From the NCBI GenBank assembly GCA_020627945.1, contig JAHDFW010000003.1, positions 7,599 to 71,598 of the forward strand: DNA of 64,000 nucleotides. Direction: 5' to 3'. Source of the stretch: Cytophagales bacterium. GTDB taxonomy: Bacteria; Bacteroidota; Bacteroidia; Cytophagales; JAHDFW01. Both the position numbers and the translations under genes were made by a program. How positions within the stretch are numbered: position 1 is the stretch's first letter; the number at the start of each line of letters is the position of its first letter. Below, piece by piece: positions 4,012 through 52,402 of this stretch. Under the pieces are notes generated by a model. It saw only the letters and a list, made by a program, of their open reading frames with translations, was not told where the DNA came from and did not search any database.

Positions 4012-4024
4012 AACATAAATATAC

Positions 4025-4056
4025 AAAAAAAGGGAGTAAGAAAACTCTTACTCCCT
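4025..4056 (-). terminator. Rho-independent terminator downstream of sucD
   Basis: Perfect 10-bp stem agggagtaag / cttactccct (4031-4040 / 4047-4056) with a 6-nt loop. An A-run at 4025-4030 gives a U-run on the - strand transcript. Confidence 0.6.
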
Positions 4057-4991: not shown

Positions 4992-5310
4992 ATTTTTTTT
5001 ATGACTTTCGCAAAGCATTTCAGTCGAACCTTAAGTTAGATCTACCCGAAAATCTAGGGAAGAAGGTCATTGTTCTTTTATTTTATGGTCTAATATTAAA
5101 AGAGAAAATTGAAATCAAAAACCTGAAAACGATCTGAATATATATTAAGACCCATTTTTCAGGTTTCTGGTTAAAGATTTCACATTTTATCGATTGCTCT
5201 TATAATGAAGAAAAAGTACTGAAATGTGGTTTCTCCGTAAAAATTATAGTTACCCCTTTAAGTTCTACTCAGGAAAAAATATAAATTCAAGATCATCCAC
5301 CAATTTCTTG

Positions 5311-5318
5311 TATTTTTG
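5311..5318 (+). promoter_or_regulatory. Candidate -7 box (TATTTTTG) for uvrA
   Basis: Exact TAnnTTTG match 20 nt upstream of the ATG at 5338. It lies inside the 5224 ORF-track extension and so argues against that extension. Confidence 0.35.
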
Positions 5319-5337
5319 CGAGCTAGATTTCTGCTTT

Positions 5338-14583: not shown

Positions 14584-14613
14584 AATTCTATAAATTTCTA
14601 ACTTCTTAATAAT

Positions 14614-14621
14614 CAAACCTA
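14614..14621 (-). promoter_or_regulatory. Candidate internal -7 box (TAGGTTTG on the - strand) in the 40-nt gap between the two large - strand genes
   Basis: The + strand reads CAAACCTA, 31 nt upstream of the 14583 start and immediately after the upstream stop codon (14624-14626). Confidence 0.25.
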
Positions 14622-14623
14622 AT

Positions 14624-30545: not shown

Positions 30546-30609
30546 CAATAATGTAGAATCAACGTAAAAATTTAGGATTATTATACGCAAACTTTGTTAT
30601 TTTGTTCGA

Positions 30610-32585: not shown

Positions 32586-35500
32586 ATGGGTCTATTAAGA
32601 GCATTAAGCATTGAAAAAGGTGAGGGTACATCTGTAGCTCTCATGATGGCGCAGTCATTTTTTCTGGGAGCGTTCATTATGACATTTCAGATTAGTGCTA
32701 ACGCCATGTTCTTGAAAGAGGTAGGTGGAGATTCACTTACGCTCGCATATTTGATATCTGGGATAATGGGTATGACCCTAACCTTGATTTTTTCTTTCCT
32801 CCAAAAACGAATTCCGTTTAGAATCCTTGCAATTGCGACATATTTAATTGTTGCTGTGTCCACGATCGGGCTTTGGTGGAGTTTTCATTATCATATTTTT
32901 TCCGATTATCACCTGGTATACTTTGTGTTCTTGATTGTAGGACCATTTATAGCGTTGGTAGCCTATATCACCTTCTGGGGTGTAATGGGTAGGATTTTTA
33001 ACCTAAAACAAGCTAAACGATTATTTGGTTTAATTGACTCTGGACAGATTCTAGCGATGATTCTGGTCTCTTTCGCAATCCCATTTTTAACTAACATTCT
33101 TCCAAATACAAAAGATTTGGTTCTCATAAGTGGGGCAAGTCTAGCAGTTGCGTTTTTTATTCAAATCATAGTTTCGTTTAAATATGGTTCTGAATTCGAT
33201 GCGGCCGAAAAAGCTAGCTCCGATGATGGTGGTGGTAGTGCTTCCGAAGCTAAAATTTCAAAATATCTGAAGAACCCATACATCGTGATGATGGCGCTAT
33301 TCGTTTTTATTTCGATGCTAGTGCAGTTTTTTGTTGAGTTCTCCTTCATGAAAACTGTAAACAATCAATATCCGGGGGAGCATGAATTAACAAACTTTTT
33401 CGGTTTCTTCATGGGTACATTACTGATTTTCAGTTTTGTATTTAAATCTTTCCTTTATGGTAAACTAATCCAAATGTATGGATTGAAGGTGAACCTACTT
33501 ATTTTGCCGATTGTATTAGTTTTCTTTACCGTTATTGCTGCCATAATGGGAACTTTAGACAGTTACGAAGGAGCTCCAAATACTTTCGTACTCTTCTTTA
33601 TGTTCATAATCTCCAGTAAGTTATTCGCACAATCTCTTAGGGTTTCAATTGAGGTTCCTGCGTTCAAAACTTTCTACCAACCACTGGATCGCGGGATCCG
33701 ATTCGATGTACAATCGAGAATTGATGGGTTCGTAAATGAGTTGTCAGCAACACTTGGAGGAGCTATTTTATGGATACTAGAATTGGCTGGTTTCAAATTA
33801 ATTCACTTTTCATGGCTATTGATTCCAATTATTGGCCTTTGGGCATATCTGACATTTAGACTTTATGATCGTTACCAAATCACTCTACGTGAATCTCTTT
33901 CCAACATTAAATCTGGTTTAAACAATGCGGGGGCTAAAGTAGCCCAAATGTTAGGTATTTCATCACTTCTTCAAAATCAAATATCTGCCTCAGATAAAGG
34001 TGATGCAATAAATGCCATTAAAATATCGAATCAACTCTCACCTGTATTGTACCTAGAGGCCCTTACACAGTCTTTGGAATCAAACAACACTGAGATAAGA
34101 AGTTTTGCCGCACAACAGCTAAACGCTAATAACGAATTTAGAACACTAAATACCGTCAAGGACAAAGTAGAATCGGAAAATCAAGAAGGAATTCGTTCTG
34201 AACTTTTTCATTTGATGGAAGAAGCTAATCAATATTCGAATAACAAAATCGATGACACCAGATTAATCAGAATGGCTCGCTCAAAGAAGAAGCAGGACAG
34301 AATTAATCTTTGCAAAATTTTAACTCTAGAGGCTTATAAAGAAAATAGAGGGATTTTGGCAGAACTGTTGCGTGACGTAGATCCGAAAGTACGTAAAGAG
34401 GCAATTATGTCTGTGGTTAAATTGAAAGAAGAAGAGTTATACCTTCCGATGATTGACAATTTGGCTAAAAATGAATACCGAAATAGTACTATTCATGCGA
34501 TTCTAGCACTGGGTAAAGATATATTAGAAGCACTTAACACCTCATTTTACAAAGCAGGTTTTAATGGTGATACACTAGTGTTAGTTGTCGATTTAATTGG
34601 AGAAATAAACGGAGAGAAGAGTCAGGATTATCTTGAAGAAAAACTTACCGTACCCGATATGCAAGTGGTAGATGCTGTAATGATTGCTCTACACAAATGT
34701 GGATATCAAGCTTCTGAAGAACAAAAAGGGAAAATTATTCAAGCTATTGATGACACAATTGGGGTAACCATGTGGAACTTCGCTTCATCAATTGAGGCAA
34801 AAAAACATAAATTAGGTCAGGATCTATCAGAAGCTATTAACCTTGAAATCAAGAGTAATTTTGATCATATATTTTTACTTCTGGGGTTAATCTATGATAC
34901 TCAGTCAATTAAACACATCAAGCAAAATATTGAAAGTGGAACAGCTGAGGGAATTAGTTTCGCCATTGAGTTGCTGGATATCTTTGTAGATGAACAATTA
35001 AAACAAAAGCTCTTCCCTATTTTAGATGATATTACGCCTGAAGAAAAGGTAAGTATACTGCAACCTTTTTATCCAAGGTTTGAATTAACTAAGGAAGAAT
35101 CCTTAAAAAGCATATTAAATCGAAGTTACACAGAAATTAACCGTTGGTCTCGAATTTGCGCGATCCAAAGTTATAAGGAGATGGAAAATGGAGCTATTTC
35201 CGACGATTTAGTGGCTCATATTTTCAACCCTGATTATGGTATCAGAGAAGCTGCAGGTTTAGCATTAAGGAAAATAGATCTTAAAAAATATCGCGAAGTA
35301 AGCTATAGATTAGAAGATCATGAAAGAGTTGAATTGAATGAAAAAGTTAATGACATTGAGCAGGGGAATGCATTAAGTATTTTTGAATTGGTGAAGATGC
35401 TTTTAGAAATTCCGGCACTATCTAACTGCTCGGGAAATCATTTGGTAGATCTAGCTGAACATATGAATCAGATGATTTATTTAGAAGGAGATGCAGTTCT

Positions 35501-35828
35501 AAGTTTGACCGAAAATGACAACAAGGATTTCTTAAAGGTAATCTGGAAAGGAAAAGTAAGCATTAAAGATACAGAAGGCAACCTGTTGAATTCATTCAAA
35601 CAGGGGGAAATATTCAGTAGCTATCAATTACAAGATTACCAAGGTAAGGGAGAGCTAAAAATGATTTGTGAACAAAACACCTCCGTTTATTCTTTAGATG
35701 GAGCTTATTTGTACCAACTACTAGTCGAAAATGACAAGTTAGCCAACGCAGTTCTACAAGTGTTAAACGGAAATGGGAAACTGGACAGCGACATAAAGAA
35801 TAATAATTTAGAATCAGTAGTCAGTTAA
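32586..35828 (+). CDS. Polytopic MFS-fold (ATP/ADP-translocase/TLC-like) membrane domain fused to HEAT repeats and a C-terminal cyclic-nucleotide-binding-like domain
   Basis: 1080 aa.
- The first 430 aa or so hold about a dozen hydrophobic segments, with an N-terminus like TLC/MFS-HEAT proteins.
- HEAT-like units include LLRDVDPKVRKEAIMSVVKL and NPDYGIREAAGLALRKI.
- The C-terminal beta-roll is IPALSNCSGNHLVDLAEHMNQMIYLEGDAVL...KGKVSIKD...FKQGEIFS.
- It lacks the R-[ST]-A phosphate-binding motif. Confidence 0.6.
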   Translation: MGLLRALSIEKGEGTSVALMMAQSFFLGAFIMTFQISANAMFLKEVGGDSLTLAYLISGIMGMTLTLIFSFLQKRIPFRILAIATYLIVAVSTIGLWWSFHYHIFSDYHLVYFVFLIVGPFIALVAYITFWGVMGRIFNLKQAKRLFGLIDSGQILAMILVSFAIPFLTNILPNTKDLVLISGASLAVAFFIQIIVSFKYGSEFDAAEKASSDDGGGSASEAKISKYLKNPYIVMMALFVFISMLVQFFVEFSFMKTVNNQYPGEHELTNFFGFFMGTLLIFSFVFKSFLYGKLIQMYGLKVNLLILPIVLVFFTVIAAIMGTLDSYEGAPNTFVLFFMFIISSKLFAQSLRVSIEVPAFKTFYQPLDRGIRFDVQSRIDGFVNELSATLGGAILWILELAGFKLIHFSWLLIPIIGLWAYLTFRLYDRYQITLRESLSNIKSGLNNAGAKVAQMLGISSLLQNQISASDKGDAINAIKISNQLSPVLYLEALTQSLESNNTEIRSFAAQQLNANNEFRTLNTVKDKVESENQEGIRSELFHLMEEANQYSNNKIDDTRLIRMARSKKKQDRINLCKILTLEAYKENRGILAELLRDVDPKVRKEAIMSVVKLKEEELYLPMIDNLAKNEYRNSTIHAILALGKDILEALNTSFYKAGFNGDTLVLVVDLIGEINGEKSQDYLEEKLTVPDMQVVDAVMIALHKCGYQASEEQKGKIIQAIDDTIGVTMWNFASSIEAKKHKLGQDLSEAINLEIKSNFDHIFLLLGLIYDTQSIKHIKQNIESGTAEGISFAIELLDIFVDEQLKQKLFPILDDITPEEKVSILQPFYPRFELTKEESLKSILNRSYTEINRWSRICAIQSYKEMENGAISDDLVAHIFNPDYGIREAAGLALRKIDLKKYREVSYRLEDHERVELNEKVNDIEQGNALSIFELVKMLLEIPALSNCSGNHLVDLAEHMNQMIYLEGDAVLSLTENDNKDFLKVIWKGKVSIKDTEGNLLNSFKQGEIFSSYQLQDYQGKGELKMICEQNTSVYSLDGAYLYQLLVENDKLANAVLQVLNGNGKLDSDIKNNNLESVVS

Positions 35829-37792: not shown

Positions 37793-39280
37793 ATGAAATA
37801 TCAATACGACGCGTATATAAGTTTCTCAGATCGAGATAACATCGAATCCGAAGGATATGAAGGCTGGGTAACCAACTTCAATAAATTCTTAACCTCGGTG
37901 CTTACTCAGTTATTAAATAGAGAACCTAAAATAGTTCTTTCTTCGGAAAGAGAAGCGGCTAAGAAAGAACATGGTTATACAACTGAAGAACTGTTGAAAA
38001 ACACAGGAGCATTTGTTTCGGTTCTTTCAGACAATTACATACAAGACGAAAAATCACTAGATGAATTAGAATTATTTAATAAGCATCACCAGGAAAAAAT
38101 TAGGTTTTTCGAAGAAAGTGAACAACAAGAAGGTACTGGTTTATTTAAAGCCGTGAAAAGCCCTATTGATAGAGCTCAGCAACCCGATGCTATTAAGTCT
38201 CTATTGTCTTTCGATTTTTTTAGGTTTGATTCGGAGCAAAACACATTTGAAGAACTTGTTTCATATTTCGACTCATCAGCAAAGAAAACTTACTGGCTCA
38301 GTTTGGTTGATCTTGCTTACCACATATATTATGTAGTAAGTGATCAAGAAAGAGTTGTAGACTCAGGTCGAACTGTTTACTTGGCCGAAACCACACCTGA
38401 CCAATCACCATATCGTAACATTATAAAGCGTGAATTAGAAAGTCATGGGTTTAAGGTCCTACCAAGTTCCCCGCTTAATGTTAACTCCAATGAAATTGAA
38501 AACGAAATTAAGAATTATCTTAAGCAAAGCTCGTTAGCGATTCACATTATGGGAGAGCAATATGGAAATCACATTGGGGTTTCTGAGTATTCACTTCCTG
38601 AAATTCAAAATATGGTCGCAGCTGAATATTGCGAAGAAAATAATAAAAAAGAGGCGTTCATACCTTTCGAAAGATTGATTTGGATTTCACCAATTCTTAA
38701 TGTGCAAGATGAAAAACAAAAGGTATACCTAAGCCAATTGAAAAAGGATATTGATAGCCTTTCGGACGCCGAAATCGTTCAGACTCCTTTGGCTGTTTTT
38801 AAATCAATCGCATATAATAAGGCTAATCAGGATATAAATAACCTGAAAAGAAAACTGGCCCAAAAAGCAAATAACCAGAAAAAGTCGGTGTATCTGGTAC
38901 ACGGTAAGGAAGATTTACAAGCTGTAGCACCGCTAAAAGATTGGGTAACCAAAAATGGACTAGATCTTATTCCTTCAATTTTTGAAGGAGACCAATTTGA
39001 TCTTGTTCATAAACATCGTAATAACCTAGCCCAATGTGATGGTGTAATCATCTATTACGCTCATTACAATGAACAATGGGTTAGAATTAAACTAAGGGAT
39101 TTAATTAAAGCACCTGGATTTGGTAGAAAGAGTCCATTGGATACAACCGCTATTTACATGGGATTAGAAGATTCTAATGTAAAAGAACTGAGTGTAGACC
39201 AAGGATTGATCGTAATTGAAAATGAAGGTGATTTTAAATCTCATTTGATGGAAGAATTCCTTAACGACTTACTGAACTGA
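37793..39280 (+). CDS. Cytoplasmic protein with an N-terminal TIR-like domain and two further TIR/flavodoxin-like (DUF4062-like) modules
   Basis: 495 aa with no signal peptide or TM segment.
- Module 1: YDAYISFSDRDN ... GAFVSVLSDNYIQDEKSLDELELF, a TIR beta-A / beta-D-alpha pattern with E91 in the position of the conserved TIR glutamate.
- Module 2: TVYLAETTPDQSPYRNIIKRELESHGFKVLP ... LAIHIMG.
- Module 3: SVYLVHGKEDLQAVAPLKDWVTKNGLDLIP ... CDGVIIYYA. Confidence 0.6.
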   Translation: MKYQYDAYISFSDRDNIESEGYEGWVTNFNKFLTSVLTQLLNREPKIVLSSEREAAKKEHGYTTEELLKNTGAFVSVLSDNYIQDEKSLDELELFNKHHQEKIRFFEESEQQEGTGLFKAVKSPIDRAQQPDAIKSLLSFDFFRFDSEQNTFEELVSYFDSSAKKTYWLSLVDLAYHIYYVVSDQERVVDSGRTVYLAETTPDQSPYRNIIKRELESHGFKVLPSSPLNVNSNEIENEIKNYLKQSSLAIHIMGEQYGNHIGVSEYSLPEIQNMVAAEYCEENNKKEAFIPFERLIWISPILNVQDEKQKVYLSQLKKDIDSLSDAEIVQTPLAVFKSIAYNKANQDINNLKRKLAQKANNQKKSVYLVHGKEDLQAVAPLKDWVTKNGLDLIPSIFEGDQFDLVHKHRNNLAQCDGVIIYYAHYNEQWVRIKLRDLIKAPGFGRKSPLDTTAIYMGLEDSNVKELSVDQGLIVIENEGDFKSHLMEEFLNDLLN

Positions 39281-39290
39281 TAACAATACT

Positions 39291-42200
39291 ATGGCTGAAG
39301 CAACTCAAATAAGGCAAAAAAGTCGCAAGCGTGTAAAGTTTAATCCGTTTCCAGGGTTACGCCCATTTACCGTAAATGAAAGTCACTTGTTTTTTGGAAG
39401 AGAAGGACAGAGTGATGAGGTACTTAAAAAGCTTGCTGAAAATAAATTTACTGCTGTAATTGGAGCATCTGGATCTGGTAAATCTTCGCTTATGTACTGT
39501 GGAGTGATACCTACGGTATATGGAGGTTTTATTTCTAAAGCTGGTGATAGTTGGAGAATGGTTGTAACACGACCAGGTAATGCTCCTATTGACAATCTAG
39601 CTAAGGCAATTGTGGAAAGTGAACCAGATCATGAAGGTGGTTCAGAAGAAAAGCTTCGAATTCAACGTACTATGAACTCCGCAATTTTGCGTTCTAGTTC
39701 AAAAGGTTTGGTAGAAGCACTACGTCAAGTAAACCAGAAGCGAAAGCAAAACATATTACTTCTTATAGATCAGTTCGAGGAGTTATTTCGTTTTAAGAAA
39801 AGTGCGGAAAATGTAGATTCTGCCAATGAATCAGCGGAATTTGTTCGCTTATTTTTAGAAGCAGCCAACCAAAGTGAAGTGCCTATTTATGTGGTACTAA
39901 CAATGCGTTCAGATTTTATTGGGGACTGTGCTCAATTCCCTAGTCTTACGGAAAAAATTAATGACAGTCACTACTTGATTCCGCAGATGACCCGTAACGA
40001 TATGCAAAATGCTATTGAAGGGCCTGTCGCAGTAGGTGGTGGTAAAATTTCTCCTCATTTGGTTCAGCAATTGCTCAATGAGGTCGGAGATAACCCAGAT
40101 CAACTTCCCATTCTTCAGCATGCCCTTATGAGAACATGGGATGCTTGGGAAAATTCTATCGAAGATGAAGCCATGATCAATATTGATCATTATGACTCCA
40201 TTGGTAGAATGGAAAAAGCACTTTCCAATCACGCCAACGAAGCATATGACGAACTAAGTGAAGGTGGTAAACGAATTTGCGAAAACCTCTTTAAGACACT
40301 AACTGAAAAAGGTGGTGATAATAGAGGGATTCGTAGACCAACTGCCCTTCTCACCGTTGCGGACATTTGTCATGCACCAATGGACGAGGTGAAAGAAGTA
40401 GTTGAAAAATTTAGAGTTGCTGGAAGATCATTCTTAGCACCATCTTCAAGTGTAAAACTTGAATCTGATACTATAGTCGATATTTCTCACGAAAGTTTGA
40501 TGAGAATTTGGGATCGTCTTATTGTTTGGGTAGATGAGGAAGCAACGGCAGTAAATACATACGTTAGAATTGCCGACGCAGCTGCACTCTATCAAGTCGG
40601 AAAAGCAAGCTTATGGAGACCACCAGATTTGCAGCTTGCACTGAATTGGAAAGAAAAGAAAGAGCCTACCTTAAAATGGGCCGAACGGTATGATCCGTCT
40701 TTTGAAAGAGCAATGGTATTCCTTCAAACCAGTAAGGATACTTATGAAGCTGAAGAAAGGAATAAAATTTTACAACAAAAACGAGCTCTAAAACGCTCCA
40801 GAATTGTTGCAATTGTACTTGGTACAGCCGCAGTAATAGCACTTTTCCTTACACTTTGGGCTTTTATACAACAGCAAAAAGCCGAGGAAAAAGAGAAAGA
40901 AGCTCTTGAAGCAAAAGCTAATGCCGAGGTAAAAGAAAAAGAAGCAAACCTTGCTAAGGAAGACGCTCTTAAGCAAAAAGCTATTGCAGAGGAAAAGGAG
41001 CAAGAAGCTCTTGTACAAAAAGCTTTAGCGGATTCTGCTAAAGTGTTGGCCGAATTATCTGCCGCTGAAGCACTTCGACAAAAAGGGATTGCACTTCAAA
41101 AAGAGAAAGAAGCGAATCGTCAGAAAGTTATTGCTGAGGAAAAAGAGGCGGAAGCACAAAAACAGAAAACCTTAGCGGAGCAAAAGGAGAAAGAGGCAAT
41201 TGCGGCACAGTTAGAAGCGGATAAACTGCGAATGCTTTCGATTTCTAAAGCGATGGCTATTAAATCTGCTCAAATGCGAAGAGATACCACTCGTAAAGCA
41301 TTATTGGCTTACCAATCTTACATATTTAATGATGAATATAAAGGTGAAGAACACAATGCCGATGTTTATGATGGTCTTTATTCAACTCTTAAATCTTTGA
41401 ATCAAGAAGAATACAATAGTCTGGAGGGACATACGGATGCTATTCGTGCTTTGAACTTTTCAAATGAAGGTACTTTGTATTCAACTGGTAGTGATGGTAA
41501 AATTATGGCTTGGGATACGGAGTCATCAACTTCTCCATTTAAAACAGTTTATAGTGATGATAAAATCAAAAGAACTATGGTTGTGAGCCCAGACAACAAA
41601 AGTCTGGCAGTTGGTGATGAAAGTTCAAATATTAAGTTAGTGAACATTGCAAGTGGTGACGCTTCTGAATTAAAAGACCACACTAAAGCAGTTTGGGCAT
41701 TAACTTACGACAAAGAAGGGAACCTATATAGTACCTCTGCAGATTCAACTTTGAGAGTATGGAACAATGGAACTTCTAAAATTCTTACCAACGGTCAGTT
41801 GATTAGAACCGTATCAGTGTATGGAGATAATATCGCTTGTGGACAAATGAACTCCAAATTAACTATTTGGAACAAGAGCAACGGTTCTCTGGTTAAGAGT
41901 TTAGACGAGGCTTCACCTGTATATTCTGTGGCTTACAGCCCAGATGGGAAATTACTCGCTTGTGGAGATCTTCAAGGTAATATTAAAATTTACGACTCTA
42001 AATCGTATGAGTTAATAACTAGTTTACGTGGACACACTGCAAGGGTACATGAGATTGAGTTTAGCCAAGATGGATCTCAAATGGCAACTGCTAGTTTCGA
42101 CAAAACGGTATTACTTTGGAAAACTGCCGACTTCAACGTGACTCCAATAAGTATGAGAGATCATGAAGGTTGGGTAGTAACAATGGCTTTTAGTCCTGAT

Positions 42201-42407
42201 GGCACTAAACTTATCGCAGGTTGTATTGACAATGTAATTCGAGTTTGGCCTACTGATATTAAGAGTATGGCAGAACAAATTTGCGAAAAACTTAAGAGAA
42301 ACATGACTCAGAAGGAATGGGAAAAATATGTAGCTAAAGATATTCCTTACGAAAAAACATGTGACGCTCTTCCTGTAGGTGAAGGAGTAAAACCAGAAAA
42401 CGAATAA
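39291..42407 (+). CDS. STAND-type P-loop NTPase (nSTAND1-like) - single TM helix - ~120-residue coiled coil - seven WD40 repeats
   Basis: 1038 aa.
- N-terminus FNPFPGLRPFTVNESHLFFGREGQSDEVLKKL.
- Walker A GASGSGKSS (39462-39488) and Walker B-like LLLIDQFEELF.
- TM helix IVAIVLGTAAVIALFLTLWAFI (40803-40868), preceded by KRALKRSR.
- KEKEA-rich heptad region at about 40869-41250.
- Seven GH/WD-type blades at 41424-42251.
- C-terminal tail RNMTQKEWEKYV..PYEKTC, typical of STAND-WD40 proteins. Confidence 0.75.
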   Translation: MAEATQIRQKSRKRVKFNPFPGLRPFTVNESHLFFGREGQSDEVLKKLAENKFTAVIGASGSGKSSLMYCGVIPTVYGGFISKAGDSWRMVVTRPGNAPIDNLAKAIVESEPDHEGGSEEKLRIQRTMNSAILRSSSKGLVEALRQVNQKRKQNILLLIDQFEELFRFKKSAENVDSANESAEFVRLFLEAANQSEVPIYVVLTMRSDFIGDCAQFPSLTEKINDSHYLIPQMTRNDMQNAIEGPVAVGGGKISPHLVQQLLNEVGDNPDQLPILQHALMRTWDAWENSIEDEAMINIDHYDSIGRMEKALSNHANEAYDELSEGGKRICENLFKTLTEKGGDNRGIRRPTALLTVADICHAPMDEVKEVVEKFRVAGRSFLAPSSSVKLESDTIVDISHESLMRIWDRLIVWVDEEATAVNTYVRIADAAALYQVGKASLWRPPDLQLALNWKEKKEPTLKWAERYDPSFERAMVFLQTSKDTYEAEERNKILQQKRALKRSRIVAIVLGTAAVIALFLTLWAFIQQQKAEEKEKEALEAKANAEVKEKEANLAKEDALKQKAIAEEKEQEALVQKALADSAKVLAELSAAEALRQKGIALQKEKEANRQKVIAEEKEAEAQKQKTLAEQKEKEAIAAQLEADKLRMLSISKAMAIKSAQMRRDTTRKALLAYQSYIFNDEYKGEEHNADVYDGLYSTLKSLNQEEYNSLEGHTDAIRALNFSNEGTLYSTGSDGKIMAWDTESSTSPFKTVYSDDKIKRTMVVSPDNKSLAVGDESSNIKLVNIASGDASELKDHTKAVWALTYDKEGNLYSTSADSTLRVWNNGTSKILTNGQLIRTVSVYGDNIACGQMNSKLTIWNKSNGSLVKSLDEASPVYSVAYSPDGKLLACGDLQGNIKIYDSKSYELITSLRGHTARVHEIEFSQDGSQMATASFDKTVLLWKTADFNVTPISMRDHEGWVVTMAFSPDGTKLIAGCIDNVIRVWPTDIKSMAEQICEKLKRNMTQKEWEKYVAKDIPYEKTCDALPVGEGVKPENE

Positions 42408-42489
42408 AGAAATTTTGATCCACAATGTAATGTATTCCAACATGTGTAGAACAATTCGAAATATTAATCCAATTCCATCATTAAAAAGA

Positions 42490-43542
42490 ATGGTAATACT
42501 TGTGTTTTTATGCACAACAGGATTCTTGTTTTCGTTGCAAACTTCAGCTCAAGAAGATTGCTCTGAAAAACTAAAAAATGCAGAAGCTAGTTACGAAGGA
42601 GGAAACATTGAAAATGTTGAATCTATTGTAACAGGGTGTCTAGATAATGGCGGGTTCAGTAAGGCAGAAAGAGAAGAAGCTTATAAACTACTTACTCTTG
42701 TTGGTCTTTTTGAAGATGATTTCCCAAAGGCTGAGTCCAACATGACTAAACTCCTTAACTCAAATCCGGATTTTAAACCTAAACCATCGGACCCTATTGA
42801 GTTAAAGAAATTGTATGATCTATTTAGAATTGACCCGGTATTAACATTTGGACTACGCTTAGGATTAAATAGTAGTTACACTACACTTCTAAGATACTAT
42901 TCCGTTGAAAATTCAACCGATTTAAGTGATGGATTTATTTCTTCTGGATTAGGATTTCAAATTTCTGGAGCATTAAATGTTCGTATTGCTGGAGGTCTTT
43001 ATGCAACGTTAGAGCCTGGCTATACGTCAGTTAACTTTGTAGACCTAGGTACTAGTTTATATGACAGTGCCAACATTGTGGGCTTTACTGAAACTATGAC
43101 CAAAATGGGACTTTCAGGTGGTTTTAGTAATGAATTTAACAGATACAAGTCTATAAAACCTACTTTGGAAGCAGGTGCAGGGATTTTCAGACTTATTAGT
43201 TCGGACACGAAAATTACTCGAGATTATTTAGATGAAAGTGGAAGTGCTAGTGTTCAAGAGTCGGAAATCAACCTAAATGCGAATCGTGCAAACACCATGT
43301 TTAACCTATACTATGGTGCTGAGGTGAAATTCAAAGCAGGAAGTAGAGGAAACATTGTGATTGGAGTAAGACATAATATCGGATTGACCAACATTACCTC
43401 ATCAAGGTACAACGACAATCTAATGTATAGATACTATCATATACTGGATGACATGACTCAAAACTCCATAATGTTCAGAGTTGGGTACTTGCAATCAGTG
43501 TATAGACCAAAAATATTGAAAAGAAAATTAAAGCAACAATAA
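42490..43542 (+). CDS. Outer-membrane beta-barrel protein (OMP_b-brl_2/PorT-like pattern) with an N-terminal TPR-like helical segment
   Basis: Start chosen at MVILVFLCTTGFLFSLQTSAQE, a signal peptide; the track start is a TTG at 42415. Helical region AEREEAYKLLTLVGLFEDDFPKAESNMTKLL. After that come alternating-hydrophobic beta strands, ending in an aromatic-rich C-terminal strand region FRVGYLQSVY. Confidence 0.55.
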   Translation: MVILVFLCTTGFLFSLQTSAQEDCSEKLKNAEASYEGGNIENVESIVTGCLDNGGFSKAEREEAYKLLTLVGLFEDDFPKAESNMTKLLNSNPDFKPKPSDPIELKKLYDLFRIDPVLTFGLRLGLNSSYTTLLRYYSVENSTDLSDGFISSGLGFQISGALNVRIAGGLYATLEPGYTSVNFVDLGTSLYDSANIVGFTETMTKMGLSGGFSNEFNRYKSIKPTLEAGAGIFRLISSDTKITRDYLDESGSASVQESEINLNANRANTMFNLYYGAEVKFKAGSRGNIVIGVRHNIGLTNITSSRYNDNLMYRYYHILDDMTQNSIMFRVGYLQSVYRPKILKRKLKQQ

Positions 43543-44819
43543 TGAAAAAATACTTAGTAATTACAGTATTAGCCATTAGCATTTTTGCATGCCGTGAAAA
43601 AGGTGATCCTTTTGAGCCAGTAAGTTCTAAAAAGTTTGTGAAGTTATATGGAAAATCAAAGGTGGATGTAGCCTATGACCTCTTGCAAACCTCAGATGGA
43701 GGTTACATTATGGCAGGAGGTGTAATGGATTTCTATGGAGCTAAATATACAGGAGACCACCAGTTTTACGTAGTAAAAACAAGCCCATATGGAAACATTG
43801 AATGGGAAGTATCTCTTGGGGATAGTCTAATGAATGATACCGCCAAAGCCATTCATATTACTCCAGAAGGAGATTATATTGTTGCAGGTACTAAATCAAT
43901 TAATGACACAATAAATGGTGTACATAGTAACATGTACGTTGTCAAAATCGACCAAAGTGGCAATATAATATGGGAAAATGATCAAATTGGAAGTGCAGGG
44001 ATTAATGAAACATGTAATGCTTTTACCGCTATTGCCGATGGATATGTGTTGGTTGGAAGTACAGATGCTGCCAGCACTACAGTGGATAGTACAGTTATTG
44101 TCAACCAGTCAGGGACTAAAGATCAGTATTTGATAAGAATTGATTTAGATGGCCAAGTGGTCCCTTTTGGTACTGCACAACATGGAGGTTTTGCTAATGA
44201 TGAGTATGTAGATTGCCTCTTGAGATTTACGGCTGGAGAATATAGAGTGATTCTATTAGGCAGTGGAGTTTCTAATTTTGGAGATGAGGATATTACCATT
44301 ACAACTAAGAAAGTATCGGATTTAGCGGGACCAACGGATTTTGATGTTCCCACTAATGACGAACACAACGATATTCCAGGTAAACTTTACGATGCTGGAG
44401 ATTTCATTATGATGATAGGTACTGATGGACTAGGAGGCTCTTCAGCATCCAAGCTAGTTAACTATCAATTTAATGGTAAAGATTTGATCACTGCAGGGTT
44501 TGATACCATTATTACTTCCAATAATTGGACGAGTACATTTGGTAACTCTGTAGTAAAAGCTTGGGACAACTCAAGTTATATAATGCTAAGTACAGGAGTA
44601 CAAGGCGATAATTCTGGGATTCTCGCAAATATAGTGAGTATCAATGGAGCAGAACTTGATCCATATTTCCAAAATCAGGAATATGGATTAGGTGTAAATG
44701 AAGGTGTTAAAATCATCCGTACTTCAGACTTTGGATATGCTATTTTAGGCAATACCAGGTTTGGAGCTGATCAGAAGTTTCTGTTTATAAAAATGGATGA
44801 ATTTGGAAACATTGAATAA
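43542..44819 (+). CDS. Lipoprotein with repeated beta-propeller-like units
   Basis: Lipobox LAISIFAC. The repeated unit is (S/P/A)DGGYI..G.....(hydrophobic)VVK(I/T)...G.I.WE. The start codon overlaps the upstream stop (TAATG at 43540-43544). Confidence 0.6.
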   Translation: MKKYLVITVLAISIFACREKGDPFEPVSSKKFVKLYGKSKVDVAYDLLQTSDGGYIMAGGVMDFYGAKYTGDHQFYVVKTSPYGNIEWEVSLGDSLMNDTAKAIHITPEGDYIVAGTKSINDTINGVHSNMYVVKIDQSGNIIWENDQIGSAGINETCNAFTAIADGYVLVGSTDAASTTVDSTVIVNQSGTKDQYLIRIDLDGQVVPFGTAQHGGFANDEYVDCLLRFTAGEYRVILLGSGVSNFGDEDITITTKKVSDLAGPTDFDVPTNDEHNDIPGKLYDAGDFIMMIGTDGLGGSSASKLVNYQFNGKDLITAGFDTIITSNNWTSTFGNSVVKAWDNSSYIMLSTGVQGDNSGILANIVSINGAELDPYFQNQEYGLGVNEGVKIIRTSDFGYAILGNTRFGADQKFLFIKMDEFGNIE

Positions 44820-44883
44820 TAACTGGTAGAAGGTATATTCTTTTTACCTAAAATATAATCAACAAGTTGAAAACGTGTCAGTT

Positions 44884-47800
44884 ATGGGGATATTTAGAAA
44901 AATCGTAACGGGTGTAACTATGGCTTTAGCAGCCTTTCAGTTTACTCAAGCTCAAACTTATGCTACCCTACCATATCAAGATGATTTTGAATCAGGTCTT
45001 GGTACAGAGTGGACTACAACTGTTCCAGCATCAGCCAACGTGATTACTACCGGAATGGGTACACCATACGAAGGTTTGAATCATTTATTAATTGATGATG
45101 GAACTGCAGGTGGAACTAACACTAAAATAGCAGCCCTACATGTAAACCTTTCCAATGGTTCAGAATACACATTATCCTTCTTCATGAAGGATTTTGGAGA
45201 TGAAGATGATCTAGTTGACGGTATATACTTTTCAGACTCTGCTTCAAAAGCAGCGATTAAAGTACACTCCTTTACTCCTTCCACAATCACAGACAATGTT
45301 TGGCAAGAGGTAGTTATTGATATTGACGAATTAGCAGCCGCAAATGGTCTTAATTTAACCGATAGCTTTAGAATCGAGTTTCATGAATCTGATGACAGGG
45401 AGTGGAATAATTCTACCCCAGGAGACCCAGATGGTTTCGCATTTGACCTAATGGAAATCTACCCTACACCTACTATGACTTCTGGCTCGATTAGCGGAAC
45501 AGATACAATATGCTTCGACAGTACAGGAACTTCTACTATCACATTGACGGAAGCAAGTCCTTCATTATATGGGGAAGGGAATATAGTTTACGAGTGGCAA
45601 AGCACTTCTAATCTCTTTACCTGGGATTCAGTAACAACTTCTTCTGGCACAGACACAACTTGGCCTGCACCATTAGTTACAACTCTATATAGACGTTGTG
45701 CAATAACCGACCAAGGACAAGGTCCAGCCTGTAGTACTCCAATCTTAATTACCGTAACTCCTGAAGAAAATGCGCAAATACTTGGTTTAGCCGCTTCTTA
45801 TGCAAATACAGATGGTGCTCAAACAATTTTTGGTAGTCCAATAATAGGGCTTTTCACAGGTACAGGAATATTAGATAATGCCGATGGAACTGCGACCCTA
45901 GATGTTTCTTCTGGAGGTTTAGGCAACCGAACTATCACATATACATACACAGATCCATTTGGCTGTCCTTATACTAAAGACAGTGTAACTAATATTATTC
46001 TTGGAAACTCAGTAATCTATAAACCAGCACCTTACACCATGGATTTCGAATCGTTCCCAGGTTGGACTGGTGCCACTGAATGGCGTAGAGATAACACTAA
46101 TCCACGCGTAGAAGTAAATGCTGATGCAACACCTTATGAAGGAGCTGCTTGTTTAATTATGGACGATGATAATACGGGAAGCACAACAGAATTTACGCGT
46201 TCAGCGACTCTTCATGTTGATCTTTCTTTATTCTCCGATTACACACTGGAGTTCTATATGAAAGACTTTCAAGATGAAGACCATCCCGAAGACGGAGTTT
46301 TTATTTCTACTAAAACTAGTGGTGGATTTCAAAAGATTTTTGATTTTGCACCTACAACTAGAGCAGACGGTGCATGGGCAAAATATTCCATTGATCTAGA
46401 TGTAGCTGCAGCTACCGTAGGTACAACTTTGGATGATAGTGTACAGATCATGTTTCAAGAAAAAGATCAATTTAGATTCGATGAAAGTACTACTGATGGT
46501 ATTGCTTTGGATTCAATAGTTATTTTTACTTCCCTTCCATTAACGGCAGGAAGTATTAATGGTAGTGATACCCTTTGTTTCGCAACAACAGATACAGGCT
46601 CTGTCGTAATTACAAACAGTGCTTCTCCAACGAATGGTGAACCACCTTATTCTTATACATGGGAAAGCTCACAAGATTTATTAAGCTGGTCAAACGTTGG
46701 AAGCTCCTCTACACCAGATACAACCATTGATGCTCCTTCGGCAAGCACTTATTACAGAAGATGCGTTAGCACCTCAAGCGAAGGTCCTATTTGTACTTCA
46801 CCGATCTTCATTCGTGTGGAACAAGAACCAACCGTATTCTTAAACATTGTGGATACTGCTCTTTGCGAAAATGAACCTTCTGCTTTAATTACAGGTATTC
46901 CTACCAGTCCAGATGGTACATTTAATTCGTATACGGGATTGACTGACAATAATAATGGTACAGCTTCCTTAGATCCTGTTGTATCTGGCACTGGCTCTTT
47001 CCAAACTATTTATAGTTATACCAATTATTTTGGCTGTACTGCAAGTGATACTATTACCATGGAGGTCCTAGGCACACCTACGGTTTCATTTTCAGGTCTC
47101 TCTGCTACTTCTGCGACAACAGATCCTCCACAAACTTTAACGGGTTCTCCACCTGGAGGAGTATTCGAAGGTTTGGGAGTCTCTGGTAATGCGTTCTATC
47201 CAGCTATTGCTCCTACCGATACGTCCTTTAATATTACATATACTTATTCAGATGCTAACGGATGTACCAATACATCTAGCCCTCAAACAGTCGTTGTTAC
47301 CACTGGTAGTTCAGGAGCTATTTCTTCTAGCTTATTAAACAGTTATTGTGCTGACTTCCCTAATGAAGTGGAATTTAAGGGTACAGCACCTCCTGGTTGG
47401 TCTGCTGTTGGATTTACTTTACGATCAAATGGTGTAGCTTCGACTAACGGATTCACACCTAACGGGCTTGATTCCGCGGTATTTGAGCCTAATTTAGCTG
47501 ATCTTGGTACTACAATTGAAATTGTATTCAAGTATAGCCAAACCTATGACTGTAATCCATTCCCGTGTAACCCTTATAGCTGTAACCCTTATATATGTAA
47601 TCCATACCAATGTAATCCATACCCTTGTATTACAGGTTTTACCCCAATAGGTCTTCCAATATTTGGAACCTGCTACAGTACTTGTTGGAATTTGTGTTTC
47701 AAAACTTGCTATAACACTTGCTATAACACCTGTACCAGATATGATTCTACAGTTGTTACAACTACGGTTTACGATCTTCCAAATGTAAACTTCACAAATC

Positions 47801-52359: not shown

Positions 52360-52402
52360 TAAAAACTTACGGCTATAGAAGAAGACCTAAGCAAGACATA
52401 TT

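What the first reader, a model, noticed from the sequence alone, without database searches (positions are those of the whole stretch)
37793..39280. Stand-alone protein built from three TIR/flavodoxin-like modules, placed 10 nt upstream of the STAND NTPase
SEEN:
- Three segments each start with a hydrophobic beta-strand followed by an acidic or Ser turn: YDAYISFSDRD at residue 5, TVYLAETTPD near 194, SVYLVHGKED near 365.
- Each is followed by an amphipathic helix and later a second buried strand (AFVSVLSD, LAIHIMGE, GVIIYYAH).
- The first module has SLDELELF, with E91 (nt 38063-38065) aligned to the WCxxEL glutamate position of canonical TIRs.

ESTABLISHED:
- That glutamate is required for NAD+ cleavage in SARM1, plant TIRs and bacterial TIRs.
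- In many conflict systems an effector is encoded next to, or fused to, the STAND NTPase.

INFERENCE:
- The protein could be the effector or an oligomerisation scaffold of the adjacent NTPase.
- Modules 2 and 3 may be degenerate or regulatory copies.
Basis: partly seen in the sequence, partly recalled or inferred. Interest (0 to 1): 0.65.

Follow-up and report, generated by a model that had tools for sequence, protein, structure and literature searches.

The report
TIR–pseudo-NIR–NIR partner of membrane STAND NTPase
The gene encodes a real three-domain protein (a TIR domain followed by two domains like the newly described NAD-cleaving "NIR" domain, one with its catalytic residue naturally swapped out). 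It always sits directly upstream of a membrane-spanning STAND NTPase in a vertically inherited Cytophagales operon, so it looks like a signalling partner and not a typical mobile phage-defence toxin.

Summary
ORF 37793-39280 (495 aa) is real and ends 10 nt before an nSTAND1-WD40 gene. It folds as three five-stranded alpha/beta modules (AlphaFold2 pLDDT 84; module 3 alone 95).

- **Module 1** is a TIR_2-type TIR domain. E91 does sit on the canonical catalytic Glu column. The Trp/Cys of the WCxxE motif are missing, and the Glu is kept in only about half of the family.
- **Module 2** is DUF4062/NIR-like. Its catalytic Glu is replaced by an invariant Gln (Q272), the same change that kills NIR NADases experimentally.
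- **Module 3** is a more derived NIR-like domain with invariant W429 and KAPGFGR.

The family is large (over 2,300 clusters at 50% identity). In 83 of 84 fetched loci, and in 5 of 5 divergent ones, nSTAND1 follows directly. In 82 of 84, an NTT(TLC)-HEAT membrane protein lies upstream.

The NTPase has a conserved transmembrane helix, so its WD40 propeller is predicted to be periplasmic. An outer-membrane barrel, a lipoprotein and giant T9SS cargo genes follow. The context is housekeeping, single-copy and syntenic.

Best reading: a cytoplasmic TIR/NIR adaptor or regulated effector of a trans-envelope NLR-like signalling system. NADase activity is plausible for module 1 here but unproven. I rate it a new variant of a known kind.

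The parts
37793..39280 (+). Gene for the 495-aa three-module TIR / NIR-like / NIR-like protein (stop included)
   Evidence: ORF list and translation. Over 1,000 homologues. AF2 pLDDT 84.
37793..38350 (+). Module 1 (aa 1-186): TIR_2-type TIR domain with a beta-hairpin insert (aa 138-154) and a long C-terminal helix (161-182)
   Evidence: Pfam TIR/TIR_2. In the module-1 profile search of PDB, 18 of 19 hits are TIR domains. Divergent members reach TIR_2 58.8 bits. Weak full-length match to the NCBIfam FxsC_Nterm TIR-like model.
38063..38065 (+). Codon E91, on the canonical TIR catalytic Glu column (motif here is K-S-L-D-E, not W-C-x-x-E)
   Evidence: Column composition.
38351..38872 (+). Module 2 (aa 187-360): DUF4062/NIR-like domain plus linker helix
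   Evidence: Pfam DUF4062 over 195-262. 58 of 59 homologues hit it. hhalign to a bona fide DUF4062-NB-ARC protein gives prob 72%, E 3.4e-5.
38606..38608 (+). Codon Q272 (with N273): replaces the catalytic Glu-Tyr of DUF4062/NIR
   Evidence: S-L-P-E-I-Q-N aligns with S-I-T-E-L-E-Y. Q in 59/59 close homologues; Q152/E10/A1 among 163 representative domains.
38873..39277 (+). Module 3 (aa 361-495): compact flavodoxin-fold domain, a derived NIR-like copy
   Evidence: AF2 pLDDT 95, pTM 0.90. Foldseek hits to TIR, NDT, CMP N-glycosidase and CheY folds at TM 0.55-0.7. hhalign to module 2 E 1.8e-4 and to DUF4062 E 0.003.
39068..39127 (+). Module 3 signature N426-E-Q-W429 ... K439-A-P-G-F-G-R445 (start of helix C and the following loop)
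   Evidence: In the 59-sequence alignment N426, Q428, W429, K439, P441, G442, F443, G444 and R445 are invariant and A440 is 58/59. W429 is 135/135 in representatives.
39291..42407 (+). Partner gene: nSTAND1 NTPase (aa 19-436, Walker A GASGSGKS at 58), TM helix, charged coiled coil, WD40 propeller (aa ~700-1038)
   Evidence: Pfam. Walker A and sequence. Directly downstream in 83/84 loci and 5/5 divergent loci.
40803..40859 (+). Predicted transmembrane helix of the NTPase (aa 505-523), preceded by KRALKRSR
   Evidence: Present in 70/70 full-length orthologues.
32586..35828 (+). Upstream NTT(TLC)-HEAT membrane protein (11 TM-like helices plus HEAT repeats)
   Evidence: Pfam TLC 27.6 bits (cut-off 21) and HEAT_2. 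TM scan. Directly upstream in 82/84 loci. Family described in PMC5381601.
35837..37789 (+). HAMP-PP2C (SpoIIE/SiaA-like) membrane phosphatase, inserted between NTT-HEAT and the TIR gene only in this clade
   Evidence: Pfam and NCBIfam. Present in 3/84 loci. Its stop lies 3 nt before the TIR gene's ATG.
42415..43542 (+). Putative outer-membrane beta-barrel protein (OMP_b-brl_2 in orthologues)
   Evidence: Homologue present in 69/84 loci.
43542..44819 (+). Putative lipoprotein (MKKYLVITVLAISIFAC...), function unknown
   Evidence: Homologue detected in 24/84 loci and in L087.
44875..57184 (+). Two giant T9SS cargo proteins (PKD domain plus Por_Secre_tail)
   Evidence: Similar giants flank the cluster in Ohtaekwangia and in the four-module variant locus L087.

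Best explanation
**What it is (shown).** A cytoplasmic 495-aa protein made of three flavodoxin-fold domains of the TIR/NIR lineage.

1. A TIR_2-type TIR domain. It keeps the canonical Glu (E91) but has lost the Trp/Cys of WCxxE.
2. A DUF4062/NIR-like domain in which the catalytic Glu-Tyr is replaced by invariant Gln-Asn (Q272-N273).
3. A shorter, derived NIR-like domain with an invariant W...KAPGFGR signature.

It is the fixed operon partner of a membrane-spanning nSTAND1 NTPase. That NTPase has a cytoplasmic ATPase domain, one TM helix, a coiled-coil stalk and a WD40 propeller predicted to be periplasmic. In Cytophagales an NTT(TLC)-HEAT membrane protein also lies directly upstream. The cluster continues with an outer-membrane barrel, a lipoprotein and giant T9SS-secreted surface proteins.

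**How it most likely works (inferred).** The WD40 propeller senses something in the envelope. The STAND NTPase oligomerises on the cytoplasmic face and recruits or clusters the three-module protein, which supplies in trans the N-terminal signalling domain that the NTPase lacks.

- In members that keep the TIR Glu, such as this one, clustering could switch on NAD+ cleavage or NAD-derived nucleotide production by module 1.
- Modules 2 and 3 keep much of the NIR pocket but not the catalytic Glu. I propose they act as non-catalytic nucleotide-binding or assembly modules.
- In the many lineages that have lost the Glu in module 1 as well, the protein would act purely as an adaptor or sensor.

The output is more likely regulation than suicide. 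Possible targets are the adjacent NTT-HEAT transporter-like protein or envelope/T9SS functions.
For: **Domain identity**
- Pfam, and Pfam on homologues.
- AF2 models and Foldseek.
- PDB profile hits for module 1 are almost exclusively TIRs.
- hhalign of module 2 to a bona fide DUF4062-NB-ARC protein.

**Q272 at the catalytic position**
- One search gives the alignment.
- The spacing from the strand-A aromatic residue to the catalytic position is 76 residues here (Y196 to Q272), the same as F11 to E87 in Eva01 (10.64898/2026.06.25.731849).
- E-to-Q mutants of four NIR proteins lose NADase activity and defence (10.64898/2026.09.04.749371).

**Obligate partnership**
- nSTAND1 lies directly downstream in 83/84 loci and NTT-HEAT directly upstream in 82/84.
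- nSTAND1 also follows in five divergent loci at 26-33% identity.
- Gene gaps are 3 and 10 nt.
- The NTPase starts directly with the nSTAND1 domain at residue 19, with no fused effector or EAD.

**Membrane topology**
- A TM helix is present in 70/70 orthologues, with a positively charged N-side flank.

**Non-island character**
- Relatives were found at 386 places in a collection of one genome per species. The 80 best loci are almost all from Cytophagales-type Bacteroidota, with one locus per assembly in all but one case.
- The NTPase domain is 87% identical across main-clade orthologues.
- Flanks are housekeeping genes and GC is flat. No viral relatives were found.

**Precedent for a nucleotide-binding regulator next to NTT-HEAT**
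- In other bacteria NTT-HEAT is followed by, or fused to, a cNMP-binding domain (PMC5381601).
Against: - No biochemical or structural evidence for any interaction. Co-folding could not be run.
- Module 1 lacks the Trp of WxxxE, and its Glu is lost in about half the family. Catalysis is therefore not a family-wide requirement and may be absent here too.
- Ligand binding by modules 2 and 3 is inferred only from conserved residues.
- Foldseek cannot separate module 3 from CheY-like receivers or other flavodoxin folds.
- STAND-plus-TIR pairs are classically immune or abortive-infection systems, and vertical inheritance does not exclude immunity.
- The periplasmic location of the WD40 rests on a hydropathy scan and the positive-inside rule only.
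Confidence: 0.55

Rival explanations
1. Classical abortive-infection effector. The protein is the NAD+-depleting toxin of a two-gene NLR-like anti-phage system. The WD40 senses a phage component, the NTPase oligomerises, the TIR domains assemble, and E91-dependent NAD+ hydrolysis kills or arrests the cell.
For: - nSTAND1 was defined in predicted conflict systems with TIR and other effectors (PMC8195603).
- TIR and NIR domains are proven NADase effectors of Avs/NLR-like defence proteins.
- E91 sits on the catalytic column.
- Ten representatives keep a full SxWCxxE motif.
- One relative carries an additional canonical TIR_2 domain (P0131).
Against: - The Glu column is non-acidic in 51 of 59 close homologues and the Trp is lost in 115 of 125 representatives.
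- Module 2 carries the inactivating E-to-Q change in 152 of 163 domains.
- The operon is single-copy, syntenic and vertically inherited. Its NTPase is 87% conserved and its WD40 54% conserved, not hypervariable.
- There are no defence-island neighbours, mobile-element genes or GC anomaly.
- A periplasmic sensor would not meet cytoplasmic phage proteins.
Confidence: 0.2
2. Regulatory subunit of the upstream NTT-HEAT nucleotide-transporter-like protein. The three TIR/NIR-derived modules bind NAD+, ADP-ribose or another nucleotide and gate transport, analogous to the cNMP-binding domain found next to or fused to NTT-HEAT in other bacteria. Under this reading the link to the NTPase is secondary.
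For: - NTT-HEAT lies directly upstream in 82/84 loci.
- NTT-HEAT-cNBD operons and fusions are described in PMC5381601.
- NTT-family carriers include an NAD transporter (Chlamydia Npt1, cited in PMC5381601).
- The catalytic Glu is lost while other NIR pocket motifs are kept.
Against: - In the divergent loci that could be inspected, nSTAND1 is retained but no NTT-HEAT is seen nearby (L085, L087, L089). The NTPase link is therefore the more universal one.
- In this window a HAMP-PP2C gene separates the two genes.
- No evidence for ligand binding.
Confidence: 0.15
3. The modules are generic flavodoxin-fold or CheY-like receiver domains unrelated to TIR/NIR chemistry, for example phospho-relay or cofactor-binding domains.
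For: The top Foldseek hits for module 3 include response-regulator receivers (2qxy, E 9.4e-5), flavodoxin-like and B12-binding domains, with TM-scores equal to those of the TIR hits.
Against: - Sequence profiles point to TIR_2 and DUF4062, not Response_reg.
- Module 3 has no Asp at the end of strand 3, where receivers are phosphorylated. Residues 422-424 are Y-A-H here and mostly K-G-K in the family.
- Module 3 shares the C-D-hydrophobic strand-C motif with DUF4062 and aligns with module 2.
Confidence: 0.05

Closest known systems
DUF4062 / NIR TIR-like NADase domains (Swarozyc, Evangelion, Vulcan, Vesta, NIR-Avs2; human TEP1, NWD1/2). 2026 preprints 10.64898/2026.05.01.722283, 10.64898/2026.06.25.731849 and 10.64898/2026.09.04.749371.
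   Same: - Module 2, and more distantly module 3, match PF13271.
- They share the strand-A aromatic residue, D203, R208, the x-Y-G loop and the S-x-x-acidic helix-C cap.
- Like NIR in NWD1/TEP1/Avs, the domain is functionally paired with a STAND NTPase that carries WD40 repeats.
   Different: - The catalytic Glu-Tyr is Gln-Asn, invariant among close homologues.
- The domain is on a separate polypeptide, embedded between a TIR domain and a second NIR-like domain.
- The locus is not in a defence island and is vertically inherited.
- The window protein scores just below the Pfam cut-off (23.2-24.2 bits against 24.7).
Canonical TIR domains (Pfam TIR_2 PF13676; SARM1, plant TNL TIRs, AbTir, ThsB)
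   Same: - Module 1 has the fold and the Y-D-x-[FY]-I-S-[FY] strand A.
- It also has the I-L-S-x-[DN]-[FY] strand C followed by a helix carrying E91 on the catalytic column.
   Different: - The Trp at -4 and the Cys at -3 are missing here (K87, S88).
- The Glu is not conserved in the family.
- There is a beta-hairpin insert and a long extra helix, with family-invariant W25, F118-K119, W168, D173 and Y176 outside the canonical active site.
nSTAND1-centred predicted conflict systems (Kaur, Iyer, Burroughs & Aravind 2021, PMC8195603)
   Same: An nSTAND1 NTPase with C-terminal repeats is associated with a TIR-type domain.
   Different: - The effector or adaptor is a separate three-domain protein, with no recognisable effector-associated domain (EAD) pairing.
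- The NTPase is membrane-spanning.
- The cluster is conserved and syntenic with NTT-HEAT, outer-membrane and T9SS genes, and is not patchy.
NTT-HEAT(-cNBD) fusion family (Major, Embley & Williams 2017, PMC5381601)
   Same: The upstream gene is an NTT(TLC)-HEAT fusion, followed in the same operon by a predicted nucleotide-related regulatory protein.
   Different: The downstream partner here is a TIR/NIR triple domain, not a cyclic-nucleotide-binding domain. The function of NTT-HEAT itself is unknown.

Membership tests
TIR domain (Pfam TIR_2 / STIR clan) | Significant profile match | tested here: met
   TIR_2 scores 31.5 bits whole-protein against a cut-off of 28, though summed over weak stretches in modules 1 and 2. 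Module 1 of relatives reaches 58.8 and 53.9 bits. 18 of 19 PDB profile hits are TIRs.
TIR domain (Pfam TIR_2 / STIR clan) | Five-stranded parallel beta-sheet flavodoxin-like fold | tested here: met
   AF2 secondary structure. Foldseek local hits to SPARTA TIR-APAZ, RUN1, RPS4/RRS1 and SARM1 TIRs with prob 1.0.
TIR domain (catalytic NADase subclass) | Catalytic Glu within a W-x-x-x-E motif at the start of helix C | tested here: inconclusive
   E91 is on the Glu column, but the Trp is K87. In the family the Glu is kept in 59/125 representatives and the full WCxxE motif in 10/125.
TIR domain (catalytic NADase subclass) | NAD+ cleavage activity | not testable with these tools
   Needs an enzyme assay with an E91A control.
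DUF4062 / NIR | Match to PF13271 above the gathering score | tested here: inconclusive
   Window protein scores 23.2 bits, or 24.2 bits for module 2 alone, against a cut-off of 24.7. 58 of 59 homologues match at E<=0.01. P0124 and P0126 score 44-47 bits. hhalign to a bona fide member gives E 3.4e-5.
DUF4062 / NIR | Conserved catalytic Glu (E-Y motif) required for NADase activity and defence | tested here: not met
   Q272-N273 aligns with E-Y. Q is present in 59/59 close homologues and 152/163 representative domains.
DUF4062 / NIR | Enrichment near defence genes and patchy, horizontally transferred distribution | tested here: not met
   Housekeeping neighbours and flat GC. No PADLOC hit for the protein. 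Conserved synteny in 80 species-level genomes.
nSTAND1 conflict system | nSTAND1 NTPase with C-terminal repeat sensor | tested here: met
   PF20703 E 1.9e-97 plus WD40 in the adjacent gene.
nSTAND1 conflict system | Effector fused to the NTPase, or coupled through a shared effector-associated domain (EAD) | tested here: not met
   The NTPase begins with the nSTAND1 domain at residue 19. No shared adaptor domain was detected in either protein. The coupling is by gene adjacency only.
Avs / bacterial NLR antiviral STAND | Cytosolic sensor repeats that bind phage proteins, with rapid sensor diversification | tested here: not met
   A TM helix separates the NTPase and the WD40 in 70/70 orthologues. 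The WD40 is 54% identical among main-clade orthologues.
CheY-like receiver | Phospho-acceptor Asp at the C-terminal end of strand 3 | tested here: not met
   Module 3 residues 422-424 are Y-A-H (K-G-K in most of the family). Modules 1 and 2 have S-D and G-E/S there, with no receiver profile hit.

The most novel reading that the evidence does not exclude
A vertically inherited, trans-envelope NLR-like signalling machine in Cytophagales. A periplasmic WD40 propeller on a membrane-spanning STAND NTPase reports on the envelope or cell surface (outer-membrane barrel, lipoprotein, giant T9SS adhesin-like cargo). It signals to a cytoplasmic TIR / pseudo-NIR / NIR protein. That protein's catalytically dead NIR modules have been repurposed as NAD(-derived) nucleotide sensors or assembly scaffolds, possibly controlling the adjacent NTT-HEAT nucleotide carrier. 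This would be a housekeeping use of the TIR/NIR-STAND logic, not an abortive-infection one.
Probability: 0.3. Interest if true: 0.8.

Novelty: new variant of a known kind. Interest (0 to 1): 0.6.

Why it matters
TIR domains, and since 2026 DUF4062/NIR domains, are known as NAD+-destroying effectors of NLR-like immune proteins from bacteria to humans (TEP1, NWD1/2). This family shows the same building blocks in a different arrangement.

- It is a stand-alone TIR-NIR-NIR protein whose central NIR domain carries, invariantly, the very Glu-to-Gln change used in the laboratory to kill the enzyme.
- It is coupled to a STAND NTPase that spans the membrane.
- The operon behaves like a lineage-wide housekeeping cluster linked to an uncharacterised NTT-HEAT nucleotide carrier and to T9SS surface proteins.

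If the reading is right, it offers three things:

- a natural example of NIR pseudoenzymes;
- a handle on the long-unexplained NTT-HEAT family;
- a tractable bacterial model for non-lethal, receptor-like STAND/TIR signalling across the cell envelope.

Tried and rejected
- Single-sequence and full-profile searches of PDB sequences gave only weak hits (E >= 0.02). The module 2 profile found no solved DUF4062 structure.
- hhalign of module 1 against modules 2 and 3 was not significant. "Three copies of one module" is therefore not supported for module 1, which is a TIR_2 domain, while modules 2 and 3 are DUF4062-like.
- The exhaustive representative search with the module 2 profile returned only members of this same family in its top 150. 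It gave no canonical NIR sequences.
- A bona fide DUF4062 sequence was obtained instead through a lenient tblastn hit on a Paraburkholderia plasmid.
- The supplement of the Swarozyc preprint held accession numbers but no sequences.
- PADLOC models gave no hit for the protein. NCBIfam gave only a weak FxsC_Nterm hit.
- An IMG/VR scan found no viral relatives.
The nearest named relative is a Cytophagales MAG at 71% identity.
- The CheY-receiver reading of module 3 was considered and rejected because there is no acceptor Asp and there are sequence links to DUF4062.
- A SLOG-like ligand sensor was considered for the KAPGFGR loop. It is not supported by any Foldseek or profile hit.
Full report
**Observation.** The ORF 37793-39280 (+) is real.

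- SLDELELF is nt 38054-38077, so E91 is 38063-38065.
- The upstream gene stops 3 nt before the ATG.
- The gene's own stop is followed by a 10-nt spacer and the ATG of ORF 39291-42407.
- That next ORF is an nSTAND1 NTPase (PF20703, E 1.9e-97) with C-terminal WD40 repeats.

**Three modules.** AlphaFold2, run on a 59-sequence alignment, gives mean pLDDT 84 and pTM 0.47. It shows three consecutive units, each with five beta-strands alternating with helices: 1-186, 187-360 and 361-495. The low pTM means the relative placement of the domains is not determined. Module 3 predicted alone gives pLDDT 95 and pTM 0.90. The repeated "hydrophobic strand, acidic/Ser turn, helix" pattern is therefore a genuine structural feature.

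**Module 1 is a TIR domain.**

- Pfam gives weak TIR/TIR_2 matches in the window protein. The same module in divergent relatives scores 58.8 and 53.9 bits on TIR_2.
- A profile of module 1 searched against all PDB sequences returns 19 hits, 18 of them TIR domains (SIGIRR, TLR2, TLR6, SNC1, RUN1, MyD88, plant TIRs). Each hit is individually weak, with E 0.02-0.75.
- In those alignments the family motif I-L-S-x-D-F-I-x-S-x-x-C-L-D-x-L lies on the canonical xLSxxYxxSxWCxxEL motif. Column 91 falls on the catalytic Glu.

However:

- In 59 homologues at >=34% identity the column reads N19 H16 Y6 E5 T5 D3.
- In 125 representative domains drawn from clusters at 50% identity it reads E59 D13, the rest other residues.
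- The Trp four residues upstream, part of the WxxxE motif of NADase TIRs by established knowledge, is present in only 10 of 125. It is Lys in the window protein.
- Those ten keep a perfect S-E-W-C-T-K-E motif.

The ancestor was probably a catalytic TIR. Constraint on the active site has been relaxed in most lineages. The window protein keeps the Glu but not the Trp or Cys.

**Module 2 is a DUF4062/NIR-like domain with the catalytic Glu replaced.**

- The window protein scores 23-24 bits on PF13271, just under the 24.7 cut-off.
- 58 of 59 homologues match it, and some score 44-47 bits over the whole model.
- Three 2026 preprints show that DUF4062 (renamed NIR) is a TIR-like NADase whose activity and anti-phage function need one Glu in an E-Y motif. 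The residues are E97 in KpSwz, E108 in PsAvs2, E98 in Vulcan, E103 in VstA, E1008 in TEP1 and E87-Y88 in Eva01. E-to-Q or E-to-A mutants are dead.
- To locate that residue I recovered a bona fide DUF4062-NB-ARC gene from a Paraburkholderia plasmid. It scores 85 bits on PF13271.
- hhalign of the module 2 alignment against it gives prob 72% and E 3.4e-5 over 86 columns. S-i-v-d-i-Q-N-x-i-A lies on S-I-T-E-L-E-Y-R-E-A.

The invariant Q272-N273 (nt 38606-38611) therefore occupies the catalytic E-Y position. The spacing from the strand-A aromatic residue is 76 residues (Y196 to Q272), the same as F11 to E87 in Eva01.

Q272 is present in 59/59 close homologues. Among 163 representative domains the column reads Q152, E10, A1. 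The neighbouring motifs are kept: strand-A Tyr/Phe, D203, R208, Y257-G258, S267 and an acidic residue at 270. A retained pocket with the nucleophile or acid removed is what one expects of a binding-only pseudoenzyme. That last step is inference.

**Module 3.**

- No Pfam family matches it.
- It aligns with module 2 over strands A-C (hhalign E 1.8e-4) and weakly with canonical DUF4062 (E 0.003), sharing the C-D-hydrophobic strand C.
- Foldseek against PDB gives TM 0.55-0.7 to response-regulator receivers, several TIRs, nucleoside 2-deoxyribosyltransferase, CMP N-glycosidase, flavodoxins and Ras. This is the generic flavodoxin-like fold. It overlaps the hit spectrum reported for NIR but does not discriminate between families.
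- It lacks a receiver-type acceptor Asp.
- Its signature is W429 (135/135 representatives) and K439-A-P-G-F-G-R445.

What this signature does is unknown.

**The family.** More than 1,000 clusters at 90% identity match the whole protein. A full HMMER scan with the module 2 profile finds 2,323 clusters at 50% identity, 443 of them at E<=1e-30.

| Architecture among the 147 new top hits plus 4 known family members | Count |
|---|---|
| m1-m2-m3 | 113 of 151 |
| m1-m2-m2-m3 | 11 of 151 |

One member has an extra canonical TIR_2 at the C-terminus and one has a 540-aa N-terminal extension. A pattern scan of one genome per species found relatives at 386 places. The 80 best loci are nearly all from Cytophagales-type Bacteroidota (Ohtaekwangia, Chryseolinea, Cyclobacteriaceae, Roseivirgaceae, Flammeovirgaceae), with one locus per assembly in all but one case. 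No relative was found in IMG/VR.

**Gene neighbourhood.** I ran tblastn with the window's proteins against 84 fetched loci.

| Neighbour | Position | Loci with it |
|---|---|---|
| nSTAND1-WD40 | immediately downstream | 83 of 84 |
| NTT(TLC)-HEAT, about 1,070 aa | immediately upstream | 82 of 84 |
| Homologue of ORF 42415-43542 | next downstream | 69 of 84 |
| HAMP-PP2C gene of the window | between NTT-HEAT and the TIR gene | 3 of 84 |

- ORF 42415-43542 is annotated OMP_b-brl_2 in orthologues.
- Then come a lipoprotein-like gene and giant PKD/Por_Secre_tail T9SS cargo genes.
- Five divergent loci, with 26-33% identity in the three-module protein, also have nSTAND1 directly downstream.
- One of these, L087, keeps the barrel, the lipoprotein-like gene and a giant T9SS protein but shows no NTT-HEAT in the sequence available.

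The NTPase link is therefore the universal one.

**The partner NTPase is membrane-spanning.**

- The nSTAND1 domain starts at residue 19, with no N-terminal effector or adaptor domain.
- Residues 505-523 form a strongly hydrophobic helix (nt 40803-40859). It is preceded by KRALKRSR and followed by about 165 residues of Glu/Lys-rich coiled coil and then the WD40 propeller.
- An equivalent helix is present in 70 of 70 full-length orthologues.

By the positive-inside rule the ATPase is cytoplasmic and the WD40 periplasmic. This is an inference from sequence, not shown experimentally.

| Region | Identity among main-clade orthologues | Identity to the window |
|---|---|---|
| NTPase domain | 87% | 61% |
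| WD40 region | 54% | 30% |

The sensor is not hypervariable.

**Wider context.** The window carries housekeeping genes (succinyl-CoA ligase, UvrA, SurA-like PPIase, dihydrolipoyl dehydrogenase, 2-oxoacid:ferredoxin oxidoreductase). There are no mobile-element genes, and GC is flat at 0.355-0.393. PADLOC has no model matching the protein.

**Interpretation.** Shown:

- the domain composition;
- the natural E-to-Q replacement in module 2;
- the partial decay of the TIR motif in module 1;
- the near-obligate adjacency to nSTAND1;
- the conserved TM helix in the partner;
- the vertically conserved, envelope-related operon.

Inferred: the protein supplies in trans the N-terminal signalling module of an NLR-like receptor. 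NTPase oligomerisation would cluster it. Module 1 may cleave or convert NAD+ in Glu-retaining members such as this one. Modules 2 and 3 act as non-catalytic nucleotide-binding or assembly domains. The upstream NTT-HEAT family is uncharacterised, and in other bacteria it is followed by or fused to a cNMP-binding domain (PMC5381601). That makes a nucleotide-sensing regulator next to it plausible, and NTT carriers can transport NAD.

The classical rival is an abortive-infection NADase toxin. It remains possible, given the history of TIR/NIR-STAND systems (PMC8195603). It is weakened by four things:

- the loss of catalytic residues across the family;
- the conserved synteny and vertical inheritance;
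- the very strong conservation of the NTPase;
- the predicted extracytoplasmic sensor.

**Novelty.** TIR, NIR/DUF4062 and nSTAND1 are all known, and public records label homologues "DUF4062 domain-containing protein" or "hypothetical". I found no description of any of the following in the searchable literature:

- the TIR / pseudo-NIR / NIR architecture;
- its invariant Gln;
- its obligate pairing with a TM-containing nSTAND1-WD40;
- the NTT-HEAT/T9SS-linked operon.

I therefore rate it a new variant of a known kind, of moderate to high interest.

Noticed in passing
window 39291-42407 (TM helix at 40803-40859): The nSTAND1 NTPase has a single strongly hydrophobic helix (aa 505-523) between the ATPase domain and a long Glu/Lys-rich coiled coil plus WD40 propeller. 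It is conserved in 70/70 orthologues. This predicts a transmembrane STAND protein with a periplasmic WD40 sensor, which is unusual for NLR-like proteins.
   Followed up: partly
window 32586-35828: An NTT(TLC)-HEAT fusion protein (11 TM-like helices, HEAT repeats) sits directly upstream of the TIR/NIR gene in 82/84 loci. This family is widespread and functionally uncharacterised (PMC5381601). Here it has a fixed TIR/NIR neighbour, where other bacteria have a cNMP-binding domain.
   Followed up: partly
window 35837-37789: A membrane HAMP-PP2C phosphatase (SpoIIE domain; SiaA-like, 252 bits on NCBIfam but below the equivalog cut-off) is inserted into the operon only in this clade and one other lineage (3/84 loci). 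The lineages that have it also keep an acidic residue at TIR position 91.
   Followed up: no
window 42415-44819: Two conserved downstream genes. One is a putative outer-membrane beta-barrel (OMP_b-brl_2 in orthologues). The other is a 425-aa protein with a lipoprotein-type signal (…AISIFAC) and no informative family hit.
   Followed up: partly
window 44875-57184; also 1798-4026, 10528-14652 and 28662-30590: The window is rich in very large T9SS cargo genes (Por_Secre_tail or CHU_C sorting domains; PKD, FG-GAP and Ig_7 repeats). Homologues of the two giants after the operon are also next to the cluster in the divergent four-module locus L087.
   Followed up: partly
P0213 (locus L085 1799-4897): A relative carries the m1-m2-m3 unit behind a 540-aa N-terminal extension with no Pfam hit. 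It is followed by a short (610 aa) nSTAND1 protein with no WD40 Pfam match. By eye the extension contains a protease-like G-T-G-W motif.
   Followed up: no
P0131 (locus L088 8001-10379 and 10398-14173): A relative with m1-m2-m2-m3 plus an extra canonical C-terminal TIR_2 domain (110 bits). The nSTAND1-WD40 reading frame after it was not called as one gene, so it may be disrupted.
   Followed up: no
window 37793-38350 (module 1): Module 1 gives a weak match (E 0.005) covering nearly the whole NCBIfam model for the TIR-like N-terminal domain of FxsC. The TIR core plus hairpin and long-helix extension may therefore be shared with that actinobacterial family.
   Followed up: no
window 5224-8145: A UvrA-type ABC ATPase gives a spurious partial nSTAND1 hit (34.6 bits on the P-loop only). 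This is not a second STAND gene.
   Followed up: yes
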